Positions 46,579 to 59,153 of a stretch of DNA of 64,000 bases are shown here, in pieces. Positions within the stretch are counted from its first letter, which is position 1. The number at the start of each line of letters is the position of its first letter. The notes under the pieces were generated by a model. That model saw nothing but the letters and a program-made list of their open reading frames with translations, did no database searches and was not told the DNA's origin. This DNA is from a phage, in the NCBI GenBank assembly GCA_024614665.1, contig GCA_024614665.1_4861.1; one strand, 5' to 3'. The translations under genes were made by a program, and so were the position numbers.

Positions 46579-46652
46579 ACGGACTGCCTACGGGCGGGTA
46601 GTCCGTAGGTAAACCGCCCTTCCGTTATTGGGAGGGCGGTCTCCGTTTTATT
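46579..46652 (+). terminator. tandem hairpins + T-run between fibre genes (terminator/attenuator)
   Basis: acggact...agtccgt stem then accgccct/agggcggt stem followed by CTCCGTTTTATT. Confidence 0.4.
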
Positions 46653-46672
46653 ACAGATTAGGAGTGTTTGCA

Positions 46673-49600
46673 ATGCCGAGAGAAGATGCGGCGCAGTTTA
46701 ACGGTACGCTCAGTACCGCTACTTACCCGAACCGTTATTCGGCGGTCATTCCCGTCGAAGCACCGTTCTATCGCATCGGGTTAACGTTAACCGTTACCGA
46801 TAAAACAACCGGAACCAAACGCAAGTTAATAGAAGGTCTTGATTATTTCTTAGGACATTACTTCCAGGAATTAGCCGAGGCTGAGAACGATGCAATATAC
46901 GGCAGCATAATGCTGCTGAACGCCACAGAGGTAGAATACGAGTTGTTGTCGGTTGGTCGACAGTATCGCATCCCTGCTTCTGAAATCGGCAAGTATCTGG
47001 TTAAGACAGATATGAAAGACCCGCGTAACTGCGATTGGTCTGAGCTGATGAAATATCCGCCGATTATCTCGCCAATCGACCCGCCAAAAGACCTCGAAGA
47101 AGCGATTCTTCGCGATGAAATCGTAAAGGCGTTGGAAGATATCCGTCTGGGTATTTTAGAGCGCGCCCACGAGCTGGATGAGGCTTTTGCCGAAGTTACC
47201 GATTTGATTTATCAGAACGGTAAGCAGGTGTTTGAAGATGAGATGTATCAGCACCACCTGGTTAAAAACGCACACGGTTACACCTGCGGTGATATTGGCG
47301 CTCTCCCGGTACTCGGCAAAGCCGTAGATGCGACTAAGGCATTCGGACGTACCCTGGCAGAGCTAGTGACGTTAATGTCTACCAGCGGCATCCAACAGAA
47401 ACACGTTGACATGCTTCTGGATAATACCCTGGGTGATTTACTGGGCCGTATGCGTGTTCTGAATAACGACGCGATTACGTTCCAAACAACGTCTGGTCAC
47501 GTTATCAGCATGAAGGGTGAGAAGTTCATCATCACCTCGACAAAACCGCTGGTATTAAAAGCTGACCAGGATAACAACGAACCGGGTATCGCTACGGAGT
47601 TCAGTGCTGGTCTGAACACGCTTTGGGTTCACTCGGGTAAAGCAGGTGACAAGTGGGGCGATTATGATGCGGGTGTGCTTGCACCTGTGTATAATAGCGT
47701 GTATCTCGTTACACCGGATATGGTTAAGATGTACTTGACCTCGGTGAAGATACTTCCAGCAAACGCCTACTTCAAGTCCAGCGACACGTTGAAGATTTAT
47801 GGCTCTGGTAAAGAAACAAACAAAGTTTACATGAATGCGGAGCTGCCTGCAGCAACCACAACTGTGCAGGGTTTGTTTGCGATTACTAACCTTTCGGCGT
47901 CCGCTGCATCGTCCACAGCGATTTCCCAAAAAGCTGTTACTGACTTGAAGAACAAACTCGACGGATATGTGGACGACACGTATACGGTCAACGGCAAAGG
48001 GTTTGTGTTAGACGAAAACGGTCAAATGCATTTAACCTTAACCGCGTCGGATTTCGGTATTGAGAAGATGAACAATACCGGGCCGCTGGAGAAACCGGTT
48101 ACTAATGCGTTGCGCACCGTGCTATCAGGCAAGGCACTCTCAACACACACCCACACCATTGCTGATCTCGATGACGTGCCGTACGCATCCACATCTGTTA
48201 CAGGTTTGGCTAAACTGTGGGATGCTATTGACACCACAACAGATAAGATGGTTACTGCCCGCCAGGGTTTCTTGCTCGAACAGAAGATCGGTACACTGAA
48301 CGACAAGATTGCTACGTTGTTGCCAGCATGGACCGTTGGCGGATCGTCGTACGGTAACAATAACTTCTTGCCTATACCTGTCCAGGGGAACTACGAAGGG
48401 TACACCAAAAACCAAACTTGGCAAAAAGGACTGGCGCGTTACGAGGCTGGTAAGGTTTACTCGTTGCGTAATGGTTCCAACGGTAACGCCCCTGCTGACT
48501 GGGCTATCTATTACGCCTATGCTGATGTGTCGCCAAGCAATACGCTGGAAAATATGCAGCAGACGTCCGTACGTTATCACCCCGCTGGAATGTCGGCGTA
48601 TCCTGGGGTGAATCTGGTTGCTATTCTGATTACCGGTACAGATGCAATGATCTGCTTAGGCAGTGACGGTGCGTATTACCTGGTCATCTTTGACGGCACC
48701 ATTGACCATGCAAAACATCATCGTGTTGTTAAAGTTTACTTGGGCGATTACCGAAATGGTAACGCGGCCGGTGTGATTACAACCGCACCATGGGTTGCCG
48801 ATCCATCAACAAACGATTTGATCGTTTGCAACGATCGGGTTTATCTGCTCCGTACTGTGCTTACCTCCGGTGACTATTTCGTGAGTATGCGTAGCATCGC
48901 ACTCGACGAACTTAATCTGGGTGGTAGCAACACGTTTGTGGCGGATGTGTTAACGGGTGGGATGTTAACGTCGGGAGATAATATCTACTTGCGTCAGGGT
49001 CAGAAACGTTCTGATACAGATGTGTTGGTAGCGCCAGTAACACAAATCTACGCAGACGCATCGGCGAAGTGGAATAGTGCGCGAAATTTCGTCCATGGTC
49101 CGGAATGTAATCACGCGATTGCTGTGGATGGGCTGAACTTTCGTGTTGGTTTAACGCCAACAGTCTGGTTTGCTTCTACTACAGGGCAAACTATTAACTT
49201 TAAACAATGGGTGTCAAGCTTTGTTGTTGATTGCAGTTCAATGACGGTAACGCTGGAAGGGGCTGATCGATTCCCTATTGTGGCTGATCTTACCGCGGTT
49301 CGTTATAACGGTGGTGCTGAGATTGGGATTCCGAGCTGGAAGTGGGGCGAAGGTCAAGCTAATAACCGAACCTTTGCAACATCGCAAGACAAGTATATTG
49401 TTTCGCAAGGACTTTCAGGCGATCGCGACCTAATGCCTTATGTCAGGATTACAACGTTAGATGACGGTGTGAGTTGGTACGAGTACCTGTCGTGCGACTA
49501 CAACTTCACTGCCAGAAGTTTTAGTGCGGTAATGTTAAACCAAGGACGTGGTTCTATCTACGAGCTGGGTATGGCGTATCCGCTGACTCTGGGAGCGAAT

Positions 49601-51856
49601 TCCAGACTTATCTGGTTGTCACAACCGCGTACCCGTTTGGCAATTGAAGTTGAGTTTGATCCGAACACCACTTACTCAGGTAAGGCGGGGTATGGCCCAA
49701 CTAACAATCGTCGTGTAGTAGATTCTATCACGTATGAGAATCTGTCGCAGATGTGCCACATTGTTACACCGGCGTCGCCTGGTACAGAGTTAAACGGCTG
49801 GTATTGCACAGGACCAGAAACATTCCCTTACCACAACGTTTCCGGCACTTTCACGATTCATGCCGATCGATTGACGCTGTCACAAGCTGAATGGAATAAG
49901 ATGAAGCAGATGATCATCGACGGAGCACCGGCAGGCGCTGCGAATGGTTATGCTTCGGAATTTATCCTTGCTGCAAATAACGCAGGAAAGGCATTGTTTT
50001 CCGTTTGGTTCATCGGCATCGGAACGGCCACACCGCTCACATTAGCACAAGTAGCATGTACACGTACTGTGAACAATGTTAACGTGTTAGATATCTACTA
50101 CTTTACACTGAAACCAACAATCAGCAACGGGCAGGTAACATTCCCCGCAGCGATATTGGCACTGTTTGACTTCTATAACAACCTCGTCTATGGCTTGAAC
50201 TATGCTACGTTGGGAGAGATAACGGGAGGAAAAACACGCCGGCCGGGACAACCTACCATGGTGTCGGTAGATGGTACGCAGTTCGGGTTGTATCTTCCAC
50301 ACACGTTAACCTTGCGCCAAATTGGCGACTTGGGTGCGCTTAACTACGGTGTCGGTCTTACGCTGTCTAATGGTACCTGGACGCGTTCTTCTGCCCCGCG
50401 CGGCATTGGACGCATGGCACCATCACACACTCCAGTCAGCCCAGCTTATCTGGCTCATCGTGATCAGGTGATGCTACACAACTCATCTCTCGACTACGTC
50501 TATTGTGGTGGTATCGCAATGTCGTCGAGTGATTTTGTCGCGGCTCCTAATTTTAGTGGCCCGACTGAATCGGTCGTCATTGCTGGTGTGGAAACAGCCG
50601 AAGGTTGGCTGGTATATGTGACTGAGGAAGTTAACCTGCGTTTCGGCTCGAGCACTTATAAGCTGCCTACGTGGTATATTGACCTCAGCGCAGCGTTTCC
50701 AACAAACCATCAGAACCGGACATTCTACCTGCACGCCAAGGTAGAAAATGGTACACCGAAGTACGTAATGGACGTGATTCAACATCCAGACACTGAAACG
50801 GAACTCTATATCGGGTATGTTAAAACGGGCTCGTCGCGAGTCGTCGAGACTAATGTCGAACATGTTAAGCGCTTGGGTGCGGTGAAACAGCTGTTGGAAC
50901 ACGCAGCAGTTGAGAATAAGCACGATGTGGAAGTGGGAAGGGATGCAGCAACGGGCAGACTGGCACCATTACGTAAAGAAGCGATGGGTCCTTTGTCTAT
51001 CGATGGCAAGAAAGGCTATCTGGATAGTCAGTTGCTTTATACCGTATCTGACGCACAGCGTCGCGGTAAAGCGATGGTGTCCAAACGTTTCGAAGGCTTG
51101 AAAACCTTGCCGGTGTTTACTCAGGCAAACAAGTCGGGGGCGTTTTGGAAACATCCTACAACAATTGCGACGGTAACGGCCGATGAGAACGGTGAAGCGG
51201 CATCGTTGGGAATGGAGTGGGTAGGTATTCCAACGCCCGCCTTCTCTCCGACCACAACATACGCGATGGTGATGATACAAAGTAAATTCGTCGTCCCAGG
51301 TACACCTGGAGTGGAAACAACCTTTAATGTCAACATCGCCCCATGGGAGACGGTAGAAATGTTTTTCTACAACGTCGAGGCGGAAGGTAAGGATGTTAAC
51401 ATTGATGAAAGTTCAGAACTGTTAACGCCGAGACCACATACCGTGTATCACGAACAGCACTCTCTGCCCGCAGGCGTGCCATGTACGTTTACTTTCGTTG
51501 GTGTGTTGAGTTCCTCAGCGCTTGAGATGGCCAACCAGCATATTTGCTCTTGGCTTTTCACGGACGCGGGGGGACTACCAATCACCACCGATCTTTCGGA
51601 TAGTAAGATTCAAATCTTTCCAGCGGCGGGAGAGACCAACGGCACACCAGTTGTTTTTAACAGCCGTAGCTACACGTTTGTGGATGTGGCGGGTGCAATT
51701 CCGGTTGTTACCACGGGCGCTCAGGGTTTATACCCACCACCGATCGTGGCGTGGGATGGCGATGATCTTACGTTAACGATTGCGCACGATTGGGTGAACG
51801 AGAGAGGATGGCAACAGGCTAATGTTATCCAGGTCAATCTTATGTTCCGTACCTAA
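46673..51856 (+). CDS. large tail fibre / receptor-binding-like structural protein 3 (about 1727 aa)
   Basis: Start at ATG with AGGAG RBS (track ORF begins at upstream TTG); N-terminus APFYRIGLTLTV...LIEGLDYFLGHY. Confidence 0.55.
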   Translation: MPREDAAQFNGTLSTATYPNRYSAVIPVEAPFYRIGLTLTVTDKTTGTKRKLIEGLDYFLGHYFQELAEAENDAIYGSIMLLNATEVEYELLSVGRQYRIPASEIGKYLVKTDMKDPRNCDWSELMKYPPIISPIDPPKDLEEAILRDEIVKALEDIRLGILERAHELDEAFAEVTDLIYQNGKQVFEDEMYQHHLVKNAHGYTCGDIGALPVLGKAVDATKAFGRTLAELVTLMSTSGIQQKHVDMLLDNTLGDLLGRMRVLNNDAITFQTTSGHVISMKGEKFIITSTKPLVLKADQDNNEPGIATEFSAGLNTLWVHSGKAGDKWGDYDAGVLAPVYNSVYLVTPDMVKMYLTSVKILPANAYFKSSDTLKIYGSGKETNKVYMNAELPAATTTVQGLFAITNLSASAASSTAISQKAVTDLKNKLDGYVDDTYTVNGKGFVLDENGQMHLTLTASDFGIEKMNNTGPLEKPVTNALRTVLSGKALSTHTHTIADLDDVPYASTSVTGLAKLWDAIDTTTDKMVTARQGFLLEQKIGTLNDKIATLLPAWTVGGSSYGNNNFLPIPVQGNYEGYTKNQTWQKGLARYEAGKVYSLRNGSNGNAPADWAIYYAYADVSPSNTLENMQQTSVRYHPAGMSAYPGVNLVAILITGTDAMICLGSDGAYYLVIFDGTIDHAKHHRVVKVYLGDYRNGNAAGVITTAPWVADPSTNDLIVCNDRVYLLRTVLTSGDYFVSMRSIALDELNLGGSNTFVADVLTGGMLTSGDNIYLRQGQKRSDTDVLVAPVTQIYADASAKWNSARNFVHGPECNHAIAVDGLNFRVGLTPTVWFASTTGQTINFKQWVSSFVVDCSSMTVTLEGADRFPIVADLTAVRYNGGAEIGIPSWKWGEGQANNRTFATSQDKYIVSQGLSGDRDLMPYVRITTLDDGVSWYEYLSCDYNFTARSFSAVMLNQGRGSIYELGMAYPLTLGANSRLIWLSQPRTRLAIEVEFDPNTTYSGKAGYGPTNNRRVVDSITYENLSQMCHIVTPASPGTELNGWYCTGPETFPYHNVSGTFTIHADRLTLSQAEWNKMKQMIIDGAPAGAANGYASEFILAANNAGKALFSVWFIGIGTATPLTLAQVACTRTVNNVNVLDIYYFTLKPTISNGQVTFPAAILALFDFYNNLVYGLNYATLGEITGGKTRRPGQPTMVSVDGTQFGLYLPHTLTLRQIGDLGALNYGVGLTLSNGTWTRSSAPRGIGRMAPSHTPVSPAYLAHRDQVMLHNSSLDYVYCGGIAMSSSDFVAAPNFSGPTESVVIAGVETAEGWLVYVTEEVNLRFGSSTYKLPTWYIDLSAAFPTNHQNRTFYLHAKVENGTPKYVMDVIQHPDTETELYIGYVKTGSSRVVETNVEHVKRLGAVKQLLEHAAVENKHDVEVGRDAATGRLAPLRKEAMGPLSIDGKKGYLDSQLLYTVSDAQRRGKAMVSKRFEGLKTLPVFTQANKSGAFWKHPTTIATVTADENGEAASLGMEWVGIPTPAFSPTTTYAMVMIQSKFVVPGTPGVETTFNVNIAPWETVEMFFYNVEAEGKDVNIDESSELLTPRPHTVYHEQHSLPAGVPCTFTFVGVLSSSALEMANQHICSWLFTDAGGLPITTDLSDSKIQIFPAAGETNGTPVVFNSRSYTFVDVAGAIPVVTTGAQGLYPPPIVAWDGDDLTLTIAHDWVNERGWQQANVIQVNLMFRT

Positions 51857-51903: not shown

Positions 51904-53106
51904 ATGGCCGAAATCATTTATCAGTACCCGCTCGACCTTACCGGGACATTAACGTCGAACGCCGTTACGCGGCGTATTACGTTAGGTTCTGGTAAAGTTA
52001 ACCGGGCTTTTGCATTTCCTGACGGAGCTTTCTACGCGGATACTTTCCGCTTAGCGGCTGCGAACAAACCGGGTGTCTACCCGTACAAACGTGGTACAGA
52101 CTACGAGCTGATTTTTGCACATACTGCATATCAGAAAATGACCAAGAACCGCGAAGTGGTCATGGGTGTGGTGGTAACTAACTCGGCCATTCCTACAGAT
52201 ATCGAAGTCTCTGCGCAAGTCGTTGGTGGTTTTCAGTCTGCGAACGTCGAAGGCATCCGACAAGCGATTGCGTCGTTGAAAATTGAAGACCGCGTGGTGG
52301 ACTTCAAGGATCTTCGGAACGTACCCGATACGTTCCCGTCCGCACCGACGTATAAAGACCTTGGCGATATCTACGGTTTTGAGTACATCATTACCGTGCT
52401 CGCGGGGATTAAAGATGCGATTAACTCCGGCTCTGCAGTACAGCTGGAAGAAATTAAAGGTATTCTGGACGGTCTGAAAAACGACTTCCTCGATGCCTTA
52501 AATACCCACATCAACGCCGAAGGTAACGTACACAATCTCGACATTCATCAGGTTAATGGCCTGACGGAGACGGAGATTCGTGCTCTGATTCAAAGTGTAC
52601 AGACTGCCATTGACGCCACTATCAGAGATATCGGCGACTTAAGAGCAGCAGACACGGCGTTGGGGCAACGCATCGATGCAGTTGTGGCTTCGTTAGCCGC
52701 GTGGAACGACCAGCTTAATGTAGTTGCTCAAAATTACCAGAAAATGTCGTTAGCATTAGCTAACCTTAATTCTCTGGTGTTGCAATTACAGAAGAAGGTT
52801 AATGATCTTCAGTCTGCGCTGAATGAAACAAATCAGCGTGTCACGGATCTTGAGAATCAAGGCAAAGACTTCCAACAGCAAATTGATAACCTGCAAGGAC
52901 AAATCAACAGTCTTAAAACTCAGGTTGTAAACAACACCAACGCAATTTCGCAGGCAAACCAGAATCTGGCGAACCATGCGGCTGCGGATAACCCACACCC
53001 GAATTACCTCCATAAACAGTATGGCGGTGTTGTGCAGGCTGCTGTTCACGTCAACAACAACCTCACCTCGCGCGACGATGTTCAAGCTGAAGCGGGTACT
53101 AAGTAA
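51904..53106 (+). CDS. fibre-like protein with shared N-terminal domain and C-terminal coiled coil (about 400 aa)
   Basis: Start at ATG with AAAGGAG RBS; N-terminus GAFYADTF...KRGTDYELIFAH; heptad-like Q/N/L-rich C-terminus. Confidence 0.5.
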   Translation: MAEIIYQYPLDLTGTLTSNAVTRRITLGSGKVNRAFAFPDGAFYADTFRLAAANKPGVYPYKRGTDYELIFAHTAYQKMTKNREVVMGVVVTNSAIPTDIEVSAQVVGGFQSANVEGIRQAIASLKIEDRVVDFKDLRNVPDTFPSAPTYKDLGDIYGFEYIITVLAGIKDAINSGSAVQLEEIKGILDGLKNDFLDALNTHINAEGNVHNLDIHQVNGLTETEIRALIQSVQTAIDATIRDIGDLRAADTALGQRIDAVVASLAAWNDQLNVVAQNYQKMSLALANLNSLVLQLQKKVNDLQSALNETNQRVTDLENQGKDFQQQIDNLQGQINSLKTQVVNNTNAISQANQNLANHAAADNPHPNYLHKQYGGVVQAAVHVNNNLTSRDDVQAEAGTK

Positions 53107-53113
53107 CTTGTTT

Positions 53114-53160
53114 ACGAGCCGGACTATGTTTATGGACATAGTCCGCTCGTTCTACTTTTT
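53114..53160 (+). terminator. intrinsic terminator separating fibre module from Cys-peptide cassette
   Basis: cggactatgt/acatagtccg stem, then TCTACTTTTT. Confidence 0.5.
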
Positions 53161-53171
53161 AAGGAAGCGTA

Positions 53172-53564
53172 ATGGCGATATCTATTAAAGACGTCAGAAA
53201 CCGCGTCCAGATAGTCGAAGCTAACATGGCGACAGGCCCCCGTATCGACGCGCAAGTGGCCTCTAAAGCCCATAACGCGGCAGACCGATTTGGGGGTTGG
53301 ACGAAAACACAGCTAGATTGCGGCGGGACATGTTCTTGGACGTGCTCTAACGGTTGCTCGCATGGCTGTTCGAGCTGTTCAGGAAGCTGTTCTGCTTCTT
53401 GTATCGGTAGCTGTTCTTCGACGTGTGGCGGTAACTGTTCTGGTTGCTCTGGTTGTTCTGGTGGTTGCAGTAGTAGCTGTACCGGTAACTGCACAGGTGG
53501 TTGCGGTGGCTCTTGTTCCGCAAACTGCTCCGGGGCCTGCTCCGGCGGCTGTTCAGGTCGCTAA
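53172..53564 (+). CDS. Cys-rich leader+core peptide A (130 aa), candidate RiPP precursor
   Basis: AAGGAAG RBS; leader-like N-terminus (ISIKDVRNRVQIVEAN); core has about 21 Cys at Cxxx spacing. Confidence 0.6.
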   Translation: MAISIKDVRNRVQIVEANMATGPRIDAQVASKAHNAADRFGGWTKTQLDCGGTCSWTCSNGCSHGCSSCSGSCSASCIGSCSSTCGGNCSGCSGCSGGCSSSCTGNCTGGCGGSCSANCSGACSGGCSGR

Positions 53565-53574
53565 GGGGGATTAA

Positions 53575-53979
53575 ATGGCAATTGGATTAAAAGAACTGAA
53601 TAACCGATTAAACACGATCGATGCAAACGCTCTAAAGAATACCACGAATGTGCAAAACTACATTCGCAATAAAGCTACGAATAACGCCGACTTGTTCGCA
53701 GGTCAAGGCCGTTCGCACTATGACTGTGGTGGCACATGCTCTTTTAGTTGCTCGAGTTGTTCTGGCGGATGTACTGGGTCTGCGACAGGTGGTTGTGGGT
53801 CGACTTGTTCGGCAAACTGTGTATCAGGCTGTAGCAGCAGCTGCACGGGCTGTAGCTCTTCGTGCTCTGGTGGTTGTAGCGGCACGTGCACAGGCAGCTG
53901 TTCTGGGGGTTGTGGTAAATCCTGCTCCGCAAACTGCTCAGGTGCGTGCTCTGGTGGTTGTTCAGGTCCTAACTCCTAA
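53575..53979 (+). CDS. Cys-rich leader+core peptide B (134 aa), candidate RiPP precursor
   Basis: AAGGGGGA RBS; leader (IGLKELNNRLNTIDAN); core about 20 Cys; C-terminus near-identical to peptide A (SCSANCSGACSGGCSG). Confidence 0.6.
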   Translation: MAIGLKELNNRLNTIDANALKNTTNVQNYIRNKATNNADLFAGQGRSHYDCGGTCSFSCSSCSGGCTGSATGGCGSTCSANCVSGCSSSCTGCSSSCSGGCSGTCTGSCSGGCGKSCSANCSGACSGGCSGPNS

Positions 53980-53994
53980 CTGACGGAGGCTTAT

Positions 53995-54201
53995 GTGATC
54001 AGTCTCAAGACTATTCGAAACCGTCTCGTTACGGCAGAAGGCTACATTACAACCGCGCAGGCAAACAACTATATCGCTAACCAGGGCACCGTGTCAACCA
54101 CGAACAACCTGGCTGGTTTACCGCTTTCTCACTATAACTGTAATGGTGGGTGTAGCTGGTCCTGCAGCGGAAGCTGTAGCCGTGGAGCGGGGAATCGATA
54201 A
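53995..54201 (+). CDS. short Cys-containing leader+core peptide C (68 aa), candidate RiPP precursor
   Basis: GTG start 5 nt after GACGGAGG; leader (ISLKTIRNRLVTAEGY); short core CNGGCSWSCSGSCS. Confidence 0.45.
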   Translation: MISLKTIRNRLVTAEGYITTAQANNYIANQGTVSTTNNLAGLPLSHYNCNGGCSWSCSGSCSRGAGNR

Positions 54202-54223
54202 CAGAAAACGTTCGGAGTATTAA

Positions 54224-55111
54224 ATGAAAAACGATTTGCATCTTGCGTATAAAACCACATTCAACCACCCGCTGCATCTATCTTCCCCAGATTCGGTGCG
54301 TGCACACCTCGCTGACAAAGTCAGACTGATTGCACAGATTCCTGGTGAGTGGCCAAAGGTTCGTGGTCGCTTCTTGACCGACAAGAAGAACTACACCGTA
54401 GAAAATACGTTTAAGATCCGTGATATGGTTGCAGAGGCCATCGTTATCTTTAACGGCGATGGTAACTCTCGCGGCGTGTTGGTTGACGGTAAGTATTTCT
54501 TCAGTGAAGGGATTCTGAACAACAGTGTCGATTTAGAACTGATGTTTACACCGTTTGACGAACTCGAAGCAAAACCGATGGCGCGCCGTTGGTGGAGTCC
54601 GGACTATCTGGGCTCGTTCCCTTACTACTTTGTACTGGTACCTGCCGATACGGAAACGTATTTCGACACCGAACCGTACATCGATATCGAGGGATATAAA
54701 GAACTCGGCATCACCCGTTTAGCGGACATGATGGCGTATAGCTATAAGTTCGTGTGGGATAAAAAGCGTTCTGTCTGGTATGCGCTGACTGACGATTTTG
54801 AAATCACCAAACGTATTCGTAAGCCGTGGATGCAACACCTGGTTCAAACCCGATATGGGGATTACCCGGCGACAGAAGCGGATTTGAGTAAGCTGGTAAG
54901 CTTCCTCTTAACGAAGGTGGATTTAACGAAAGAAGAAGCAGAAGCTGTTTCTGAGATTCGTAGTCGTTCGGTTACGTTGGCCGATTTGAAACGCTTGAAC
55001 GAAAGACATGCCGACCTGAACAAAATTTTAGCTGCCTATCACGACCCGATGTTACTGGTGCCTGGCGCTAATGTAGACGAAGATCCTTTATTCGCCATTG
55101 ATTATATTTAA
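54224..55111 (+). CDS. hypothetical protein in Cys-peptide/radical SAM cassette (295 aa)
   Basis: Between the peptide genes and the radical SAM genes; no motif recognised. Confidence 0.5.
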   Translation: MKNDLHLAYKTTFNHPLHLSSPDSVRAHLADKVRLIAQIPGEWPKVRGRFLTDKKNYTVENTFKIRDMVAEAIVIFNGDGNSRGVLVDGKYFFSEGILNNSVDLELMFTPFDELEAKPMARRWWSPDYLGSFPYYFVLVPADTETYFDTEPYIDIEGYKELGITRLADMMAYSYKFVWDKKRSVWYALTDDFEITKRIRKPWMQHLVQTRYGDYPATEADLSKLVSFLLTKVDLTKEEAEAVSEIRSRSVTLADLKRLNERHADLNKILAAYHDPMLLVPGANVDEDPLFAIDYI

Positions 55112-55133
55112 AAATATACTGGAGCAACCTGCA

Positions 55134-56048
55134 ATGACAGATCAAGTAGAATCCAGGATCTCGTCTGAACTGTACGACAAACCGTCAATTCTGTCGGTTG
55201 TCGCAACTTCTAAGTGTAACTTAGACTGTAGCTTCTGTGGAGGGGCTTATTACATGGATAGAGAAGATACTTCTCGTGAGTTTCAACGTGAAGAGATTCT
55301 CTCGATTTTAGAGAAGAATCCGGATATCGGTGAAATTCATTGGACGGGCGGTGAGCCGCTGTTAGCGCAGCGCAAGATTGAAGACTTCGTGAACGAGTTG
55401 AAGGAGTCTCATCCGAACCTCCGTCATCACATGTACACCAACGGTTTAAAGATGCGTAAATCACATCTGCCGTTGCTGAAACAGTTCGACCTTATCTTTG
55501 TGTCCATTGACGGCTACAAGAAGTCGGAACGTCCGTTTATGAACTTTGTAAACGGTGGTAATCACGAAGCGCTGGAAGTGCTGTACGAGCTGGACAACTA
55601 TTACACCTGGGGTGTGATGACGCGTGACCAGTTAGGTGATAAACGCTGGTACGAAGATTTCATCGAGCTGCACCGAGCAATCTATCATTACCGTCCAGGT
55701 GGTATGTCGTTGCTGTTTGATGCGATGATGCCGAAACCGTTATCGCCAGACCACGTCATGAACTTCATGTACGGGTATTGGAAAATACTCGACAATATCG
55801 AACGCCTTAACATGCAGAACGATTCTGAGTGTGGGCTTGCGATCAGTAAAATGTTCGATACTGAGTGCAACACGTGCAGTGAAGTGCTGTGGCTTAACGC
55901 CGACGGTACGCAGGAGCAAATTCAGAACGCCCCAGAGATATTGGAAGTCGGCTGTAATCGCCTGGCGCGTTCTATCGGCGTTGATGCGTATAACTACATC
56001 AACCGTGTAATTTCTGCTAAGCGTAAACGGGCGGCGAACAATGAGTAA
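55134..56048 (+). CDS. radical SAM enzyme 1 (about 304 aa)
   Basis: CNLDCSFC (CxxxCxxC) near N-terminus and IHWTGGEPLL; extra C-terminal Cys; ATG with GGAG RBS (track ORF begins at upstream TTG). Confidence 0.7.
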   Translation: MTDQVESRISSELYDKPSILSVVATSKCNLDCSFCGGAYYMDREDTSREFQREEILSILEKNPDIGEIHWTGGEPLLAQRKIEDFVNELKESHPNLRHHMYTNGLKMRKSHLPLLKQFDLIFVSIDGYKKSERPFMNFVNGGNHEALEVLYELDNYYTWGVMTRDQLGDKRWYEDFIELHRAIYHYRPGGMSLLFDAMMPKPLSPDHVMNFMYGYWKILDNIERLNMQNDSECGLAISKMFDTECNTCSEVLWLNADGTQEQIQNAPEILEVGCNRLARSIGVDAYNYINRVISAKRKRAANNE

Positions 56049-57369
56049 CAGCGAACAGCAAATCCAGTACACACCACGCACGTATCAGGTTGTGACTAAC
56101 CTGTCATGTAATCTGGACTGCGAATACTGCTACGAGCGTAAATATCCTCGTAACAACAAAGTAGCAGACGTGATTGATTTTATCCACGCTTGTTTCGAGC
56201 GTGATAAAGATATCCCGAACGTTGAGGTCATCATCGATATCATCGGTGGTGAGCCGTTCATGCAGCCTAAACTTCTTTTGGCGGCCTTTGAAACCGCAGA
56301 GAAGTTATGCGCAGAACACAATCGCCCGTATATGTTCAGTATCTCCACGAACGGTACACTTCTGGACCGTCCGCTGAACAAAGAAATTATCGAGCGCTGG
56401 AAAGACAAACTGTCTATTGGGGTCTCCATCGATGGTTTACCTGAAGTCCATGACAAATATCGTATCTTTACCACGACGCGTGAAGGGTCGTACGAAGCTG
56501 CGGTACGCGGTTACAATTATCTGAAGAGTGTTGGCATCGCTGAATTAGGCGTAAAGGCGACGTTTACGATCGATACATTGCCGCACTATGCCGCCAGCAT
56601 GAAATCGTTAATTGACATGTCCGGCGGTGGTACCATTTCTGGTAACGTAACGTACGAAGATATCCTGCCGCGCCATATGGCGTTGGATATCGCGAACCAG
56701 ATGATGGACGTGATGGACTACTGGATTGAGAAGGGTCTGCACACCAACCCGCGTAACACGATTACACACATCATCCCGGATGGCCTGAACTTTATGGCAA
56801 CTTGGGACCCGGATTGGCGTGACAAACTCTTACATGACGACTCTGTTCGTCTCGACCCAGAACGCCTGAAACCGTACTGCGGTACGTTGACGCACATGAC
56901 CTGTCTCGGCTTTGATCGCAAGATTTACGGTTGTAACCGTTTCATGTCCACGGTAACTTCCCGTTCTGCTGTAGCAGAACTGGTCGGTCGTGAGTTTGTG
57001 AGCCTGGACGGTGGTAAGTTGTTAGAAGAGATTCAAACACAGTACACCAACTACCCAGAAACCTGTTTAGGGTGTCCGATGAAACACAGTTGCGGTAGCT
57101 GCGCAGCAGCATCGTACGAAAACGGTGAAGGTACACTGGAAGACCGTAAAGCGTATCACGCCGAGCGTCGTCAGTGTGGTTGGACTACTGCGAAGCTGAT
57201 GGCGGCGGAATATTGGTATCAGAAAACTGGTACGACCCGCGCATCAGATTTGCATGATAAATCCATGTGCTATTGTTCACGTTGTGTACGCCAACGTGCT
57301 GAAGCAGAAAAATTACAAAACGGAGCCCAGAATGAAGTCAATACTGATTCACAATTTTACGAAGCGTAA
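56041..57369 (+). CDS. radical SAM enzyme 2 with SPASM-like C-terminal Cys cluster (442 aa)
   Basis: CNLDCEYC and IIGGEPFMQP; C-terminal CGTLTHMTC...CLGCPMKHSCGSC...CYCSRC; ATGAGTAA overlap with enzyme 1. Confidence 0.7.
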   Translation: MSNSEQQIQYTPRTYQVVTNLSCNLDCEYCYERKYPRNNKVADVIDFIHACFERDKDIPNVEVIIDIIGGEPFMQPKLLLAAFETAEKLCAEHNRPYMFSISTNGTLLDRPLNKEIIERWKDKLSIGVSIDGLPEVHDKYRIFTTTREGSYEAAVRGYNYLKSVGIAELGVKATFTIDTLPHYAASMKSLIDMSGGGTISGNVTYEDILPRHMALDIANQMMDVMDYWIEKGLHTNPRNTITHIIPDGLNFMATWDPDWRDKLLHDDSVRLDPERLKPYCGTLTHMTCLGFDRKIYGCNRFMSTVTSRSAVAELVGREFVSLDGGKLLEEIQTQYTNYPETCLGCPMKHSCGSCAAASYENGEGTLEDRKAYHAERRQCGWTTAKLMAAEYWYQKTGTTRASDLHDKSMCYCSRCVRQRAEAEKLQNGAQNEVNTDSQFYEA

Positions 57370-57898
57370 ACTGCACTTGGTCGATCGCTTCCTGCGCAAA
57401 AGCAAGCTGTACAATGTGCACGCAATTGTGGCAGGGGAAGACTTCACTGATGAAATCCAAAGCCTGTTGATTAAATACGGGCTGAATGTGATGATCCCGG
57501 TCTACTGCGTTGAGAAAGGACACGAGTCTGTCGCGGAAATCGAAAAGCGCAACCCCGGCTTTGAGAAGCGACTGCTTGCATACCCACGCCACAAAATCGA
57601 ACTGCTACGTCACTCTATTGATGAAGCCAGTCCTGAAAGTTTAGTGGCTTTGGGCTTGTCTTTCCCGCGGATGCGTATTCGTAACTTACGCTCCAATAAC
57701 CCGGTTGACGCTTATTACACAGAGCGTCAAATCTTCGAAGAACACCTGCTCCCGCAGTTGGAAGAAGAAGAGCAACACAACATTTCTCTGTTGTGGGCCG
57801 GTAACCTCGATCAGGACTTCCAGATGCTGGACTTCGGTTTGTTGTTAGAACTTGGCCTGATTGAGGAGGACGAATGTCTGTTACTGACAAAAGCTTAA
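57332..57898 (+). CDS. hypothetical protein in cassette (about 188 aa)
   Basis: Start at ATG with GGAG RBS (MKSILIHNF); overlaps end of radical SAM 2. Confidence 0.45.
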   Translation: MKSILIHNFTKRKLHLVDRFLRKSKLYNVHAIVAGEDFTDEIQSLLIKYGLNVMIPVYCVEKGHESVAEIEKRNPGFEKRLLAYPRHKIELLRHSIDEASPESLVALGLSFPRMRIRNLRSNNPVDAYYTERQIFEEHLLPQLEEEEQHNISLLWAGNLDQDFQMLDFGLLLELGLIEEDECLLLTKA

Positions 57899-58545
57899 CG
57901 AACGAAGAGATCCGCGCCCGTTATTTCCAGCGTGATTTGCCGATTGATCGTCACGGTAATTTCATGGAACGAATCGGTGCGCAGGATCAGGGCCGTACAG
58001 GCTTTTGCGCTCTGCTCCATTATCATCTCATCGAAGGGATGTCTGATAAAGAAGCCCTGGCACGCATGAAGCTGTATGAGATGTCGGAGATTGAAGCTAA
58101 CTTCACATTGAAACGCACGAAAGAGTTTATTGCTAATGTGCTGGAGATTGACCTCGACGAAATTCGCGGGAATCTGAAATCTACCGCACGTTACATTTAC
58201 GAAGACGTGCAGAAGATGCTGTTGGAGCTTGACCACCGCTACGAAGATGAGCGTCATGGTTATATCGAGTTTGAAGGTAGTCACTTTCAAGCCGATGAAT
58301 CGTCGCGTACCATCCTCGGTCAATACATTCAGGCAGATACCGCACCAGAATACTGGCTCGATACGCTGAATACTAAGCACAGTCCGTTTACAGTAGCCCA
58401 ATGTAAAGCGTTGCTGGCCGCTATTGTTGCACGTGACCAAGTGTTGCACTCAGCAATGGCAGATAACAAACGCCATATCCGTGAGTTAGCTGAAAAGCGC
58501 GATTACACTGGATTAAAAACATTGTCCGAATCTCTCGGCATTTAA
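57874..58545 (+). CDS. hypothetical protein in cassette (223 aa)
   Basis: GGAGGA RBS; followed by bidirectional terminator. Confidence 0.45.
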   Translation: MSVTDKSLTNEEIRARYFQRDLPIDRHGNFMERIGAQDQGRTGFCALLHYHLIEGMSDKEALARMKLYEMSEIEANFTLKRTKEFIANVLEIDLDEIRGNLKSTARYIYEDVQKMLLELDHRYEDERHGYIEFEGSHFQADESSRTILGQYIQADTAPEYWLDTLNTKHSPFTVAQCKALLAAIVARDQVLHSAMADNKRHIRELAEKRDYTGLKTLSESLGI

Positions 58546-58547
58546 GC

Positions 58548-58602
58548 AAAGAAAATAAAGGCCCTACCTCCCTTCGGGGAGGTAGGTACCTTATTTTATT
58601 TC
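58548..58602. terminator. bidirectional intrinsic terminator
   Basis: A-rich run, stem cctacctccc/gggaggtagg, T-run CCTTATTTTATTTC. Confidence 0.6.
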
Positions 58603-58625: not shown

Positions 58626-59153
58626 TTAAACGAATCCGTCCAGTTCACCGTTGGTGGTGCTCAGGTCAGTTTTAACGATTGGCTGCGTTACAGTATAAAC
58701 TGCAGGGCTGCCAGGTCGGTATTTAATGTGGCCTGATTTCACCTTAACAGTGATGACTTTCTCACCACTGCTGCCGTCCACGCGTTTAATGATGAGTTCA
58801 GACAATGCAAACGCATCTTCCGTTTTACCGGCGGCAATTAGATCTGCGTTGACAAAAGCAAGCACTTCTTCATCGGTATCCCATTCTGCCTGGTCAGCGG
58901 TAACTGCCTTCTCACCGATGATGTCCGATAAATTGAGGCGGGTATAATGCAGCTCTTTCACGCCAGTAAAGTTAGCGGATTCCGCGGTGGCGGTGATGGT
59001 GAGATTGGTGTTGCGAGTGTCTCCAGAATCTGCTGGTGAATAGTCAGCAACAGCGCCGAATGTAACGTCAGCAGCAGTTAACGGACTAGGCAGTCCGCTG
59101 TTTGCAGCATTAAACAGCGCGACGAGTTGGTCTTTTGCAGAGATGACTGCCAT
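58626..59153 (-). CDS. hypothetical protein, possibly structural (175 aa)
   Basis: Intact ORF; Thr/Ala/Val-rich composition; function unknown. Confidence 0.45.
   Translation of the reverse strand: MAVISAKDQLVALFNAANSGLPSPLTAADVTFGAVADYSPADSGDTRNTNLTITATAESANFTGVKELHYTRLNLSDIIGEKAVTADQAEWDTDEEVLAFVNADLIAAGKTEDAFALSELIIKRVDGSSGEKVITVKVKSGHIKYRPGSPAVYTVTQPIVKTDLSTTNGELDGFV

What the first reader, a model, noticed from the sequence alone, without database searches (positions are those of the whole stretch)
53172..58545. Phage-encoded RiPP-like cassette: three Cys-rich leader+core peptides followed by two radical SAM enzymes
Seen in sequence: three consecutive small ORFs (130, 134, 68 aa) with similar N-terminal about 45-aa regions, whose C-terminal cores have Cys recurring every about 4 residues (about 21, 20 and 4 Cys; e.g. 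CSWTCSNGCSHGCSSCSGSC). After one unknown ORF come two ORFs with CxxxCxxC (CNLDCSFC; CNLDCEYC) and GGEP motifs; the second adds a C-terminal Cys cluster. The unit is bracketed by terminators at 53114-53160 and 58548-58602. Established knowledge: CxxxCxxC plus GGEP is the radical SAM core, and C-terminal Cys-rich extensions are typical of SPASM/twitch peptide-modifying radical SAM enzymes (sactipeptide/ranthipeptide synthases, anSME). Inference: a self-contained cassette making heavily crosslinked Cys-rich peptides in a lytic phage late region, directly after the tail-fibre genes. Role unknown: virion decoration, host-envelope or competitor-targeting peptide, or metal-binding protein. I know of no described equivalent in a virulent coliphage-like genome, but cannot check databases.
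Basis: partly seen in the sequence, partly recalled or inferred. Interest (0 to 1): 0.92.

Follow-up and report, generated by a model that had tools for sequence, protein, structure and literature searches.

The report
Radical-SAM-matured Cys-rich tail-fibre module
A giant Salmonella phage encodes three small proteins with a cysteine at every fourth residue next to two radical SAM enzymes; the same module forms the end of tail-fibre proteins in many other phages, which suggests that phages enzymatically modify part of their host-attachment apparatus.

Summary
The window is a SPN3US-like jumbo phage (99% identity). Three ORFs (130, 134 and 68 aa; 21, 20 and 4 Cys, mostly spaced 4 apart) are genuine genes. 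Substitutions concentrate at codon position 3, and 19-20 Cys columns are invariant across nine genomes of five genera. GenBank records miss them or put them in the wrong frame or strand. Both downstream enzymes are radical SAM proteins. The larger has a full 7-Cys SPASM pattern. Its best family match is the 'CXXX-repeat target' maturase TIGR04115, but below that model's cut-off. Its model best resembles CteB and anSME.

The 'RiPP' reading is only partly right. The cores belong to a catalogued but uncharacterised family (TIGR04114/PF27846). In phages that module usually lies at the C-terminus of tail-fibre proteins. 75 of 79 viral loci with a maturase relative carry a CXXX protein beside it. 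Their N-terminal parts match tail-fibre families. Podophage and lambda-like prophage cassettes place the gene in the tail-fibre slot.

Most likely the three proteins are tail-fibre or baseplate subunits whose Cys-rich rods are cross-linked, probably by thioethers, by the two enzymes and a conserved orphan-fold partner. Virion presence and chemistry are untested. This is a new variant of a known kind and of high interest.

The parts
51904..53106 (+). Context: gp167-like virion (non-head) coiled-coil protein, immediately upstream of the cassette. The gp168-like 1742-aa baseplate/tail-fibre candidate lies before it (46628-51856).
   Evidence: SPN3US_0167, 'putative virion structural protein 20'. 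Detected in purified SPN3US virions and not flagged as a head protein; gp168-170 are called baseplate/tail-fibre candidates there (PMC5694885 Supplementary Table 1). gp168 is a tail protein similar to phiKZ gp131 (PMC5105663).
53114..53150 (+). Stable hairpin followed by a U-rich tract (terminator-like) between gp167 and P1.
   Evidence: -23.7 kcal/mol, z -5.4, matched by none of 200 shuffles. Sequence shown.
53172..53564 (+). P1: 130-aa CXXX-repeat protein with 21 Cys. N-terminal 49 aa, then the junction motif DCGGTCSWTC, then an 81-aa core of C/S/G.
   Evidence: phrog_6085 at E 9e-40. TIGR04114 at 18.5 bits against a cut-off of 20. Unannotated in SPN3US.
53575..53979 (+). P2: 134-aa CXXX-repeat paralogue with 20 Cys.
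   Evidence: phrog_6085 at E 3e-41. SPN3US_0166 (window 53648-53983) is annotated in a different frame over this gene and matches no PHROG.
53995..54201 (+). P3: 68-aa short paralogue with 4 Cys. It keeps the N-terminal segment and the junction motif NCNGGCSWSC only.
   Evidence: Orthologues in all related genera have 2-4 Cys. In a related 222-kb phage it is fused to an extra ~155-aa domain.
54224..55111 (+). gp165-like 295-aa accessory protein, conserved in phage CXXX cassettes, with an orphan fold.
55134..56048 (+). Small radical SAM enzyme (rSAM1, 304 aa from ATG 55134; the mechanical ORF starts at TTG 55098). It has CNLDCSFC, GGEP and a small C-terminal Cys group.
   Evidence: Pfam Radical_SAM 58.6 bits. 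Same PHROG as the large enzyme, phrog_1802. Orthologous small rSAMs occur in podophage and prophage cassettes. GGAG lies upstream of ATG 55134. The SPN3US_0164 annotated start, equivalent to window 55253/55254, lies after the Cys motif.
56041..57369 (+). Large radical SAM/SPASM maturase (rSAM2, 442 aa), overlapping rSAM1 by 8 nt.
   Evidence: Best NCBIfam hit TIGR04115 at 125.6 bits (cut-off 350); PapB 113.6 bits over its full length. Ten invariant Cys: C23/27/30 plus C280, C298, C342, C345, C351, C354 and C379, shared with a genuine TIGR04115 protein. AF2 pLDDT 90.8. Best PDB matches: CteB 5WGG at E 1.5e-16, then ChlB, anSME, TigE and SuiB.
57332..57898 (+). gp162-like 188-aa ORF of unknown function, overlapping both neighbours. 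Syntenic in all jumbo relatives.
   Evidence: phrog_7988 aligns to residues 27-213 of the long ORF. Synteny. No counterpart found in podophage or prophage cassettes.
57874..58545 (+). gp161-like DUF4376 protein (223 aa), the last gene of the unit.
   Evidence: Pfam DUF4376 at 36.3 bits, above its cut-off of 25. Weak match to phrog_2837 'tail protein'. Not in the virion proteome.
58563..58586 (.). Strong bidirectional intrinsic terminator closing the unit.
   Evidence: 10-bp stem with 7 GC pairs and T runs on both strands. -25.5 kcal/mol, z -4.3.

Best explanation
This is a phage, tail-fibre-linked version of the 'CXXX-repeat' radical SAM protein-modification system.

Shown: P1, P2 and P3 are real, conserved late genes in the tail-fibre/baseplate gene cluster. 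Their Cys-rich cores are homologous to the CXXX-repeat radical SAM target family. The adjacent large enzyme is a SPASM radical SAM maturase of the lineage that accompanies that family. The same four parts recur in unrelated phage lineages: a CXXX-domain protein, a gp165-like protein, a small rSAM and a large rSAM/SPASM. In those lineages the CXXX domain forms the C-terminal part of tail-fibre proteins.

Inferred: after translation in the cytoplasm, the large enzyme recognises the conserved junction motif (C-x-G-x-C-S-W-x-C) or the repeats themselves. Using its radical SAM cluster and two auxiliary clusters, it converts the Cys thiols into covalent cross-links. Thioethers to neighbouring residues are most likely, as in its relatives PapB, CteB and QhpD. 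The small rSAM and the orphan-fold gp165-like protein assist, either by a second modification or by presenting the substrate.

The result would be a thin, rigid, redox-insensitive Cys/Ser/Gly rod. P1, P2 and P3 would join the fibre/baseplate apparatus through their short N-terminal segments, next to gp167-gp170. Since fibres are trimers, they may form a two-long-plus-one-short heterotrimer. The rod could act as a distal fibre element in host attachment or as a stabiliser. The enzymes themselves do not enter the virion.
For: Real genes: codon-position test and invariant Cys, Shine-Dalgarno sites, and conservation of the trio in Seoulvirus, Erskinevirus, Machinavirus, Derbicusvirus (including CR5), Wellingtonvirus and a more distant large phage.

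Family link: a profile of P1-P3 retrieves PF27846 (tSAM_targ_Cxxx_rpt) proteins. A canonical bacterial locus scores 625 bits on TIGR04115 and also has TIGR04119, TIGR04116, TatA and TatC. rSAM2's top hit is TIGR04115, and it shares all ten Cys with that protein.

Structure: the best matches are the SPASM enzymes CteB, ChlB, anSME, TigE and SuiB.

Co-occurrence: at least 464 viral contigs encode a maturase relative. 75 of 79 fetched loci have a CXXX-run ORF beside it, and the rest of the window has none.

Tail-fibre link:
- Podophage contigs place the CXXX protein after a T7-tail-fibre N-terminal adaptor or a collagen-like fibre protein.
- Lambda-like contexts place it after gpJ.
- The Deferribacter prophage protein combines HxHDxRYYTE repeats with a CXXX tail.
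- The N-terminal parts of viral CXXX proteins hit PHROG tail-fibre families at E 1e-10 to 1e-54 and annotated tail-fibre proteins of cultured phages.

In SPN3US, gp167-173 are virion proteins not flagged as head, with gp168-170 called baseplate/tail-fibre candidates. gp161-166, which include the enzymes, are absent from virions (PMC5694885).
Against: - No direct evidence that P1-P3 are in the virion. Published SPN3US proteomes could not detect them because they were not in the annotation.
- In the jumbo phages the proteins are small (68-134 aa) and lack any recognised fibre-attachment domain.
- The bacterial relatives are small Tat-exported proteins, not structural fibres, so the CXXX domain's generic role could be something else, such as metal binding or adhesion.
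- P1-P3 score just below the TIGR04114 cut-off, and rSAM2 scores far below the TIGR04115 cut-off.
- The chemistry of this family has never been determined, as far as I could find. Thioether formation is an extrapolation from related enzymes.
- The role of the second rSAM is unknown.
Confidence: 0.6

Rival explanations
1. Classical diffusible RiPP. The ~45-aa N-terminal regions are leaders that guide the radical SAM enzymes. The modified cores are then cleaved off and released at lysis as a toxin, signal or metal-binding peptide acting on competitors or on the host envelope.
For: The ORFs in this phage are small. The enzymes are SPASM-type RiPP-like maturases. The bacterial relatives are small exported proteins with their own Tat genes. 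The enzymes are non-virion.
Against: - The terminator-bounded unit has no protease, exporter or immunity gene.
- The maturase has no RRE domain: its CxxxCxxC starts at residue 23, whereas CteB aligns only from its residue 106.
- The 'leader' carries the junction motif found in complete tail-fibre proteins.
- In 58 of the 75 viral loci with a target, the largest CXXX-run protein is 185-937 aa, and several match tail-fibre families.
- Three paralogues with fixed Cys counts are conserved across five genera, which is unlike fast-diversifying antagonistic peptides.
Confidence: 0.15
2. Non-virion assembly or metal-handling factors. The Cys-rich proteins bind Fe-S clusters or metals, or act as transient scaffolds or chaperones for fibre assembly, and are not part of the finished particle. 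The rSAM enzymes mature them for that role.
For: The core is about 25% Cys with regular spacing. It sits beside DUF4376 and other non-virion ORFs in a tail-fibre cluster, where assembly chaperones are usually encoded. Tat export of the bacterial relatives would fit a protein that is folded or cofactor-loaded before export.
Against: In other phages the CXXX domain is covalently part of the fibre protein itself. It would have to be cleaved off to be a mere chaperone, and no protease is evident. Nothing here tests metal binding.
Confidence: 0.15
3. Coincidental neighbours. The Cys-rich proteins are unmodified, disulfide- or metal-stabilised structural proteins, and the two rSAM enzymes act on another substrate such as a nucleotide, a cofactor or another protein.
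For: rSAM1 has only generic rSAM-core similarity (MoaA, viperin, QueE, NrdG at 39-45 bits). Some genome papers ascribe phage rSAM genes to DNA repair or metabolism (PMC8541153).
Against: Co-occurrence in 75 of 79 loci across unrelated phage lineages. rSAM2's top family is the CXXX-target maturase. The genes form a tightly overlapping operon.
Confidence: 0.05
4. The Cys-rich ORFs are not genes but frame artefacts of a GC-rich repeat. The real gene would be the alternative frame annotated as SPN3US_0166, or the opposite strand.
For: GenBank records annotate other frames or strands here: SPN3US_0166, CR5_157, PHOBOS_167/168, KWAN_183. Alternative frames are partly open.
Against: Substitutions are in excess at the third position of the Cys frame. 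The Cys frame is intact and ATG-initiated in every genome, while the alternative frames vary. The Cys frame hits phrog_6085 and the alternative frame hits nothing. Homologues exist in unrelated phages and in bacteria.
Confidence: 0.02

Closest known systems
CXXX-repeat peptide modification system (NCBIfam/TIGRFAM TIGR04114/TIGR04117 targets, TIGR04115 rSAM maturase, TIGR04119 CXXX_matur, TIGR04116 associated protein; Pfam PF27846)
   Same: The target has Cys at every fourth residue in a Ser/Gly/Thr matrix. The repeats start with the same motif (D-C-N-G-S-C-S-W-G-C in bacteria, D-C-G-G-T-C-S-W-T-C here). The adjacent SPASM rSAM enzyme shares all ten Cys and about 25% identity over its full length.
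   Different: - The phage cassettes lack TIGR04119, TIGR04116, the Tat signal and TatA/TatC.
- They have instead a second, small rSAM and a gp165-like orphan-fold protein.
- The targets are linked to tail-fibre sequences rather than to a signal peptide.
- rSAM2 scores 125.6 bits against the 350-bit cut-off.
- I found no experimental characterisation of the bacterial system.
Ranthipeptide/sactipeptide-type thioether-forming SPASM maturases (PapB, CteB/SCIFF maturase, QhpD)
   Same: Full-length sequence match to PapB (113.6 bits). Best solved-structure match is CteB (5WGG, E 1.5e-16, about 400 aligned columns). The substrates are Cys-rich.
   Different: There is no N-terminal RRE domain and the substrate has no CxxxD/E/T acceptor pattern. 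Scores are far below each family's cut-off. The substrates are much larger, with about 20 Cys each, and are probably retained as proteins rather than released as peptides. The chemistry is not tested.
Anaerobic sulfatase-maturating enzyme (anSME), a SPASM rSAM that modifies a Cys or Ser in a folded-protein substrate
   Same: A SPASM enzyme that acts on a protein rather than a leader-guided peptide and lacks an RRE. Structural match 4K36 at E 2.5e-13.
   Different: The anSME recognition motif, C/S-x-P/A-x-R as I recall it, is absent from P1-P3. The sulfatase_rSAM model scores 57 bits against a cut-off of 349.
Phage tail-fibre assembly modules (distal fibre gene followed by dedicated chaperones, e.g. 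Tfa or gp38/gp57-type)
   Same: The gene order is fibre protein, then dedicated non-virion maturation genes. It sits at the end of the tail-fibre cluster with a DUF4376 protein.
   Different: To my knowledge, known fibre chaperones assist folding or trimerisation and are not radical enzymes. The gp165-like protein resembles none of them.

Membership tests
Radical SAM superfamily (PF04055) | CxxxCxxC cluster motif, a GGE/GGEP SAM-binding motif, and an HMM score above the gathering threshold | tested here: met
   Both enzymes: CNLDCSFC and CNLDCEYC, GGEP, 58.6 and 55.6 bits against 29.5. The motifs are conserved in orthologues.
SPASM-domain radical SAM enzymes | C-terminal 7-Cys motif (C-x9-15-G-x4-C ... 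C-x2-C-x5-C-x3-C ... C) binding two auxiliary 4Fe-4S clusters | tested here: met
   rSAM2 has C280, C298, C342-x2-C345-x5-C351-x2-C354 and C379, invariant in 7 of 7 aligned enzymes including a genuine TIGR04115 protein. Its full-length model matches the SPASM enzymes CteB, anSME and SuiB. Caveats: Pfam PF13186 gave no hit at E<=0.1, the spacing is x2 rather than x3, and cluster binding itself cannot be tested here.
SPASM/twitch domain in the small enzyme (rSAM1) | Conserved C-terminal Cys ligands for an auxiliary cluster | tested here: inconclusive
   Of the C-terminal Cys columns, only one (the second Cys of the C-x2-C pair) is invariant. The other two are present in 4 or more of 7 sequences, and one podophage enzyme lacks them. 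HMM matches cover the N-terminal core only.
CXXX-repeat rSAM maturase (TIGR04115, equivalog domain) | Score at or above the curated cut-off of 350 bits | tested here: not met
   125.6 bits. It is the top hit but below the cut-off. The podophage orthologue scores 154.6 bits over the full model, and the bacterial control scores 625 bits. rSAM2 is therefore a related lineage, not an equivalog.
CXXX-repeat rSAM target (TIGR04114 repeat / PF27846) | Tandem C-x-x-x repeats scoring above the cut-off (20 bits) | tested here: inconclusive
   18.5, 17.1 and 13.7 bits for P1, P2 and P3. The repeat itself is plain in the sequence. A profile of P1-P3 retrieves many PF27846 proteins. A podophage homologue scores 24.6 bits. 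PF27846 is not in the Pfam copy available.
CXXX-repeat peptide modification system (complete bacterial system) | Presence of the TIGR04119 (CXXX_matur) and TIGR04116 partner proteins | tested here: not met
   No ORF of the cassette matches either model. Both are present in the bacterial control locus.
CXXX-repeat peptide modification system (complete bacterial system) | Twin-arginine signal on the target and linked TatA/TatC genes | tested here: not met
   P1-P3 start MAISIK, MAIGLK and MISLK with no RR motif. There are no Tat genes in the unit. The bacterial locus has SRREFFK and TatA/TatC.
Classical RiPP (leader-guided, leader removed) | An RRE/PqqD-like leader-binding domain in or beside the maturase | tested here: not met
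   rSAM2's cluster motif begins at residue 23, and CteB aligns only from its residue 106, after its RRE. No PqqD-like hit in any cassette ORF. gp165-like has an orphan fold, so a non-canonical recognition role is not excluded.
Classical RiPP (leader-guided, leader removed) | Leader peptidase and/or exporter, and release of a processed core | tested here: not met
   No gene in the terminator-bounded unit matches a protease or transporter family. Whether processing occurs cannot be tested with these tools.
Ranthipeptide/sactipeptide | Enzyme-installed Cys-S to carbon thioether cross-links | not testable with these tools
   This needs mass spectrometry or NMR of the co-expressed substrate. Only similarity to PapB and CteB supports it.
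Phage tail-fibre component | Gene lies in the tail-fibre module, and homologous modules are parts of recognised fibre proteins | tested here: met
   The cassette lies directly after gp167-170. Homologous CXXX modules are fused to domains that hit PHROG tail-fibre families and sit after the T7 fibre adaptor or gpJ.
Phage tail-fibre component | Physical presence in the virion | not tested
   Published SPN3US virion proteomes used an annotation that lacks P1-P3. The raw spectra would have to be searched again.

The most novel reading that the evidence does not exclude
Phages of several unrelated lineages use a dedicated pair of radical SAM enzymes to install a ladder of covalent (thioether-type) cross-links in a Cys-every-fourth-residue domain at the end of their tail fibres. 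As far as I know, this would be the first radical-enzyme post-translational modification of a virion structural protein. In SPN3US-like jumbo phages the domain has been split off into three small subunits, two long and one short, that assemble as a heterotrimeric stapled rod on the baseplate-fibre apparatus and contribute to host attachment.
Probability: 0.4. Interest if true: 0.9.

Novelty: new variant of a known kind. Interest (0 to 1): 0.8.

Why it matters
- It would link two fields that have not met: radical SAM/RiPP enzymology and phage host-recognition structures.
- It gives the catalogued but uncharacterised CXXX-repeat system a tractable model. SPN3US has an amber-mutant genetic system, published virion proteomes and an E. 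coli/Salmonella host.
- It offers an explanation for the radical SAM genes that genome papers have noted inside structural clusters of giant phages.
- It exposes a systematic annotation gap: P1 and P2 are missing or mis-framed in most of the GenBank records I examined.
- If the modification stiffens or protects the fibre tip, it bears on phage stability, host range and the engineering of therapeutic Salmonella, Erwinia and Cronobacter phages.
- A genetically encoded, enzyme-stapled Cys/Ser/Gly rod could also interest protein engineers.

Tried and rejected
- Pfam on P1-P3 and on bacterial or podophage homologues gave no hits, because PF27846 is newer than the local copy.
- Literature searches returned nothing relevant: CXXX-repeat, TIGR04115, jumbo phage + RiPP, tail fiber + radical SAM + cysteine-rich, tail fiber + SPASM. 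A broader search found only genome notes that mention rSAM genes.
- The library does not hold the paper I recall as first describing these TIGRFAMs (Haft and Basu 2011) or the SPN3US infection-proteome paper (Weintraub 2019). Expression timing could therefore not be checked.
- tblastn of the Deferribacter fibre N-terminus against cultured phages gave only three short hits in archaeal viruses, all annotated hypothetical.
- The cultured podophages that share the N-terminal fibre domain (HTVC041P, CRP-114) lack the rSAM cassette.
- Recent DNA slippage was considered and rejected as the origin of the repeats: only weak, short tandem arrays exist at the DNA level.
- QueE, NrdG-activase, MoaA and viperin identities were considered and rejected for the large enzyme: each matches the N-terminal core only, at 40-55 bits or less.
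I did not run the 1.84-billion-protein representative search.

Full report
IDENTITY OF THE WINDOW. The region is 99% identical to the Salmonella jumbo phages SaP7, SEGD1 and SPN3US (Seoulvirus, about 240 kb, phiKZ-related). In SPN3US numbering the finding spans the unannotated space after gene 167 through gene 161. It is therefore a giant phage, not a small virulent coliphage.

- The three ORFs are at 53172-53564 (P1, 130 aa), 53575-53979 (P2, 134 aa) and 53995-54201 (P3, 68 aa).
- They contain 21, 20 and 4 Cys. 17 of 20, 16 of 19 and 3 of 3 successive Cys-Cys distances are exactly four residues. No shuffle of 20,000 reached this for P1 or P2.
- The cores are essentially C, S and G, with some T, N and A. 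The units read C-[S/T/G]-[G/S/A]-[G/S/T/N].
- The N-terminal ~45-50 residues are homologous, and all three proteins fall in phrog_6085.
- At the DNA level there are only weak, short tandem arrays, so the repeat is maintained at the protein level.

ARE THEY GENES? The question matters because SPN3US annotates a different frame over P2 (SPN3US_0166). Related records annotate other frames or the opposite strand.
- I extracted the orthologous ORFs from nine genomes of five genera. The Cys frame is always intact and ATG-initiated. P1 always has exactly 21 Cys and P2 has 20-23.
- In codon alignments, differences fall at positions 1/2/3 as 729/618/1624 in the P1 core and 747/594/1829 in the P2 core. 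The leaders show the same bias. 19-20 Cys columns are invariant.
- Each ORF has a Shine-Dalgarno site at the correct spacing.
- The alternative frame matches no PHROG.
- The Cys frame is therefore the gene. Cronobacter phage CR5 and a much more distant large phage (L022) keep the same arrangement of two long proteins and one short one.

THE ENZYMES.
- Both pass the Pfam Radical_SAM threshold.
- The large enzyme (56041-57369) has TIGR04115, 'radical SAM peptide maturase, CXXX-repeat target family', as its best NCBIfam hit. The score is 125.6 bits, below the equivalog cut-off of 350.
- Next come a full-length match to the ranthipeptide maturase PapB (113.6 bits) and other Cys-peptide maturases.
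- I aligned it with its jumbo, podophage and prophage orthologues and with a genuine TIGR04115 protein. Ten Cys are invariant: the CxxxCxxC triad plus seven in the SPASM pattern.
- Its AlphaFold model (pLDDT 90.8) matches the SPASM enzymes CteB, ChlB, anSME, TigE and SuiB over about 400 columns.
- It has no N-terminal RRE domain.
- The jumbo-phage enzymes add a C-terminal CxCxxC.
- The small enzyme has an intact CxxxCxxC and GGEP, and a small, poorly conserved C-terminal Cys group. Only its N-terminal core matches known families.
- Its real start is most likely ATG 55134. The SPN3US annotation starts after the cluster motif.

WHAT THE Cys-RICH PROTEINS ARE RELATED TO. P1-P3 score just below the cut-off of TIGR04114, the CXXX-repeat rSAM target. 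A profile of P1-P3 orthologues found 277 proteins. The 120 listed fall into these classes:
a. Jumbo-phage orthologues.
b. Small bacterial proteins with a twin-arginine signal followed directly by 'DCNGSCSWGC' and CXXX repeats. These carry PF27846 (tSAM_targ_Cxxx_rpt).
c. Proteins of about 200-250 aa in which a non-Cys N-terminal domain precedes the same junction and repeats.

The bacterial locus is the canonical system: target, TIGR04115 (625 bits), TIGR04119, TIGR04116, TatA and TatC. The family is therefore catalogued. I found no paper that characterises it.

THE PHAGE CONTEXTS CHANGE THE INTERPRETATION.
- In T7-like podophage contigs the CXXX protein follows a T7-tail-fibre N-terminal adaptor or a collagen-like fibre protein. 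It is followed by a small rSAM, a gp165-like ORF and a large rSAM.
- In a Deferribacter abyssi lambda-like prophage the order is gpK, gpJ, two ORFs, then a 302-aa protein. That protein has repeated HxHDxRYYTE motifs and ends in '...NADQLGGQAGSYYRCSDCSWTC' plus 29 Cys. It is followed by gp165-like, small rSAM and large rSAM genes.
- Another siphophage contig has the CXXX protein directly after the gpJ-like gene.
- All phage versions share the junction consensus L-x-G-x5-Y-x-C-x-G-x-C-S-W-x-C.
- A systematic scan found at least 464 IMG/VR contigs that encode a maturase relative. In 75 of the 79 fetched loci a CXXX-run ORF lies beside it. In 58 of those 75 the largest such protein is 185-937 aa. 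The rest of the 64-kb window has none.
- With the Cys domains removed, the N-terminal parts of a sample hit PHROG tail-fibre families: E 2e-54 and 1e-51 for L047, 2e-32 for L053, and 2e-10 ('long tail fiber protein distal subunit') for L046. They also hit annotated tail-fibre proteins of cultured phages.
- In a related 222-kb jumbo phage, P3 carries an extra ~155-aa C-terminal domain.

LOCAL CONTEXT IN SPN3US. gp167-gp173 are detected in purified virions and are not flagged as head proteins. gp168-170 are called baseplate/tail-fibre candidates, and gp168 resembles phiKZ gp131 at the baseplate periphery. gp161-166, which include both enzymes and gp165, were not detected (PMC5694885 Supplementary Table 1 and PMC5105663). 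P1-P3 could not have been detected, because they were not in the annotation. The unit is bracketed by two stable hairpins, and its genes overlap or are 10-22 nt apart.

THE ACCESSORY PROTEIN. The 295-aa gp165-like protein is homologous to the ORFs found in the prophage and podophage cassettes (E 1e-9 and 1e-7). It models confidently (pLDDT 90.5) but has no structural analogue in the PDB or BFVD. gp162-like and the DUF4376 protein are syntenic only within the jumbo clade.

MECHANISM.
Shown:
- The genes are real.
- The core is homologous to CXXX-repeat targets.
- The large enzyme is a SPASM maturase of the matching lineage.
- Targets and enzymes strictly co-occur.
- The module is linked to tail fibres in several phage lineages.

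Inferred:
- The large enzyme cross-links the Cys residues, most probably as thioethers, by analogy with PapB, CteB and QhpD.
- The small rSAM and gp165-like protein assist.
- The products are thin, covalently stapled rods that belong to the fibre/baseplate apparatus.
- The conserved trio suggests a heterotrimer.

Not shown: virion presence, any mass change, and the chemistry.

COMPARISON AND NOVELTY. It works like a SPASM-rSAM Cys-peptide maturation system and is a relative of the CXXX-repeat system. It fails that system's membership tests for TIGR04119, TIGR04116, the Tat signal and the TIGR04115 cut-off. It also fails the classical RiPP tests for an RRE, a protease and an exporter. Giant-phage papers have remarked on unexplained rSAM genes in structural clusters (PMC12390700), or ascribed them to DNA repair and metabolism (PMC8541153). 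One automatic annotation labels the two enzymes 'AlbA' and 'MoaA'. I found no report that links them to Cys-rich targets or to tail fibres. I therefore rate this a new variant of a known kind, of high interest. The main uncertainty is whether P1-P3 are in the virion.

Noticed in passing
window 53172-53979; SPN3US_0166 = window 53648-53983; also CR5_157, PHOBOS_167/168, KWAN_183/184, ASESINO_184-186, pEaSNUABM29_00267/268: P1 and P2 are unannotated, mis-framed or placed on the opposite strand in most GenBank records of this phage clade that I examined. Only a few records, such as EARLPHILLIPIV_162 and pSALSNUABM04_167, call the Cys frame.
   Followed up: yes
window 55098-55254: SPN3US_0164, 'radical SAM superfamily protein 2', is annotated from the Met at about 55253/55254. 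That lies after the CNLDCSFC cluster motif. The likely true start is ATG 55134, which has GGAG upstream. Erwinia phage records use the longer form.
   Followed up: yes
rSAM2, window 56041-57369 (protein cluster P0170 and neighbours): The identical protein occurs on about 240-kb contigs in many assemblies labelled Salmonella enterica, E. coli or even Curtobacterium (598 contigs for one sequence). The whole phage genome is therefore carried along in bacterial isolate assemblies, through a carrier state, pseudolysogeny or contamination.
   Followed up: no
window 57268-57285 (rSAM2 residues 410-415): A C-terminal extension found only in the jumbo-phage enzymes carries a conserved CxCxxC (CYCSRC, CNCYQC or CNCYEC). 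It is absent from the podophage, prophage and bacterial enzymes. It may be an extra metal site.
   Followed up: partly
L020 9001-9681 (222-kb metagenomic jumbo phage); P0019, P0032: The P3 orthologue is extended by a ~140-155-aa C-terminal domain after the CSW junction. Two different extension sequences were seen. This looks like modular exchange of a distal domain.
   Followed up: partly
L014-L016 (bacterial CXXX system): The canonical Tat-linked CXXX system sits directly beside a phage-type integrase, P22-portal-like genes and a very large LPD23 protein. It may therefore ride on a mobile element.
   Followed up: no
L061/L062 4756-6198; L083; L085/L088; L096: Some viral CXXX proteins are extreme: 480 aa with 92 Cys, or 364 aa with 81 Cys. 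One 937-aa protein has the CXXX domain in the middle, followed by a repeat-rich domain (DGTGTGTGPF repeats). Several loci carry two or three CXXX proteins.
   Followed up: no
rows H27-H30 (Salmonella phages SPFM10, 12, 14 and 6) and proteins P0148-P0163, P0250-P0253: Several SPFM phage records match the region only as about 40 short pieces covering 43%, and their proteins appear frameshifted. This suggests error-rich assemblies rather than real divergence.
   Followed up: no
window 58626-59153 (- strand): The ORF just after the terminator is the homologue of SPN3US gp160. That paper reports gp160 as a very abundant head protein (more than 300 copies, paralogue family B). In related phages the neighbouring genes carry DUF7941.
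   Followed up: no
L022 3651-4835: The distant large phage that keeps the trio cassette has a third radical SAM gene (394 aa) about 5 kb upstream. PMC12390700 reports eight rSAM genes in the structural cluster of Aeromonas phage 332-Vera, and PMC8541153 reports six in pPa_SNUABM_DT01. Expanded rSAM sets may mark further fibre-modification systems.
   Followed up: no
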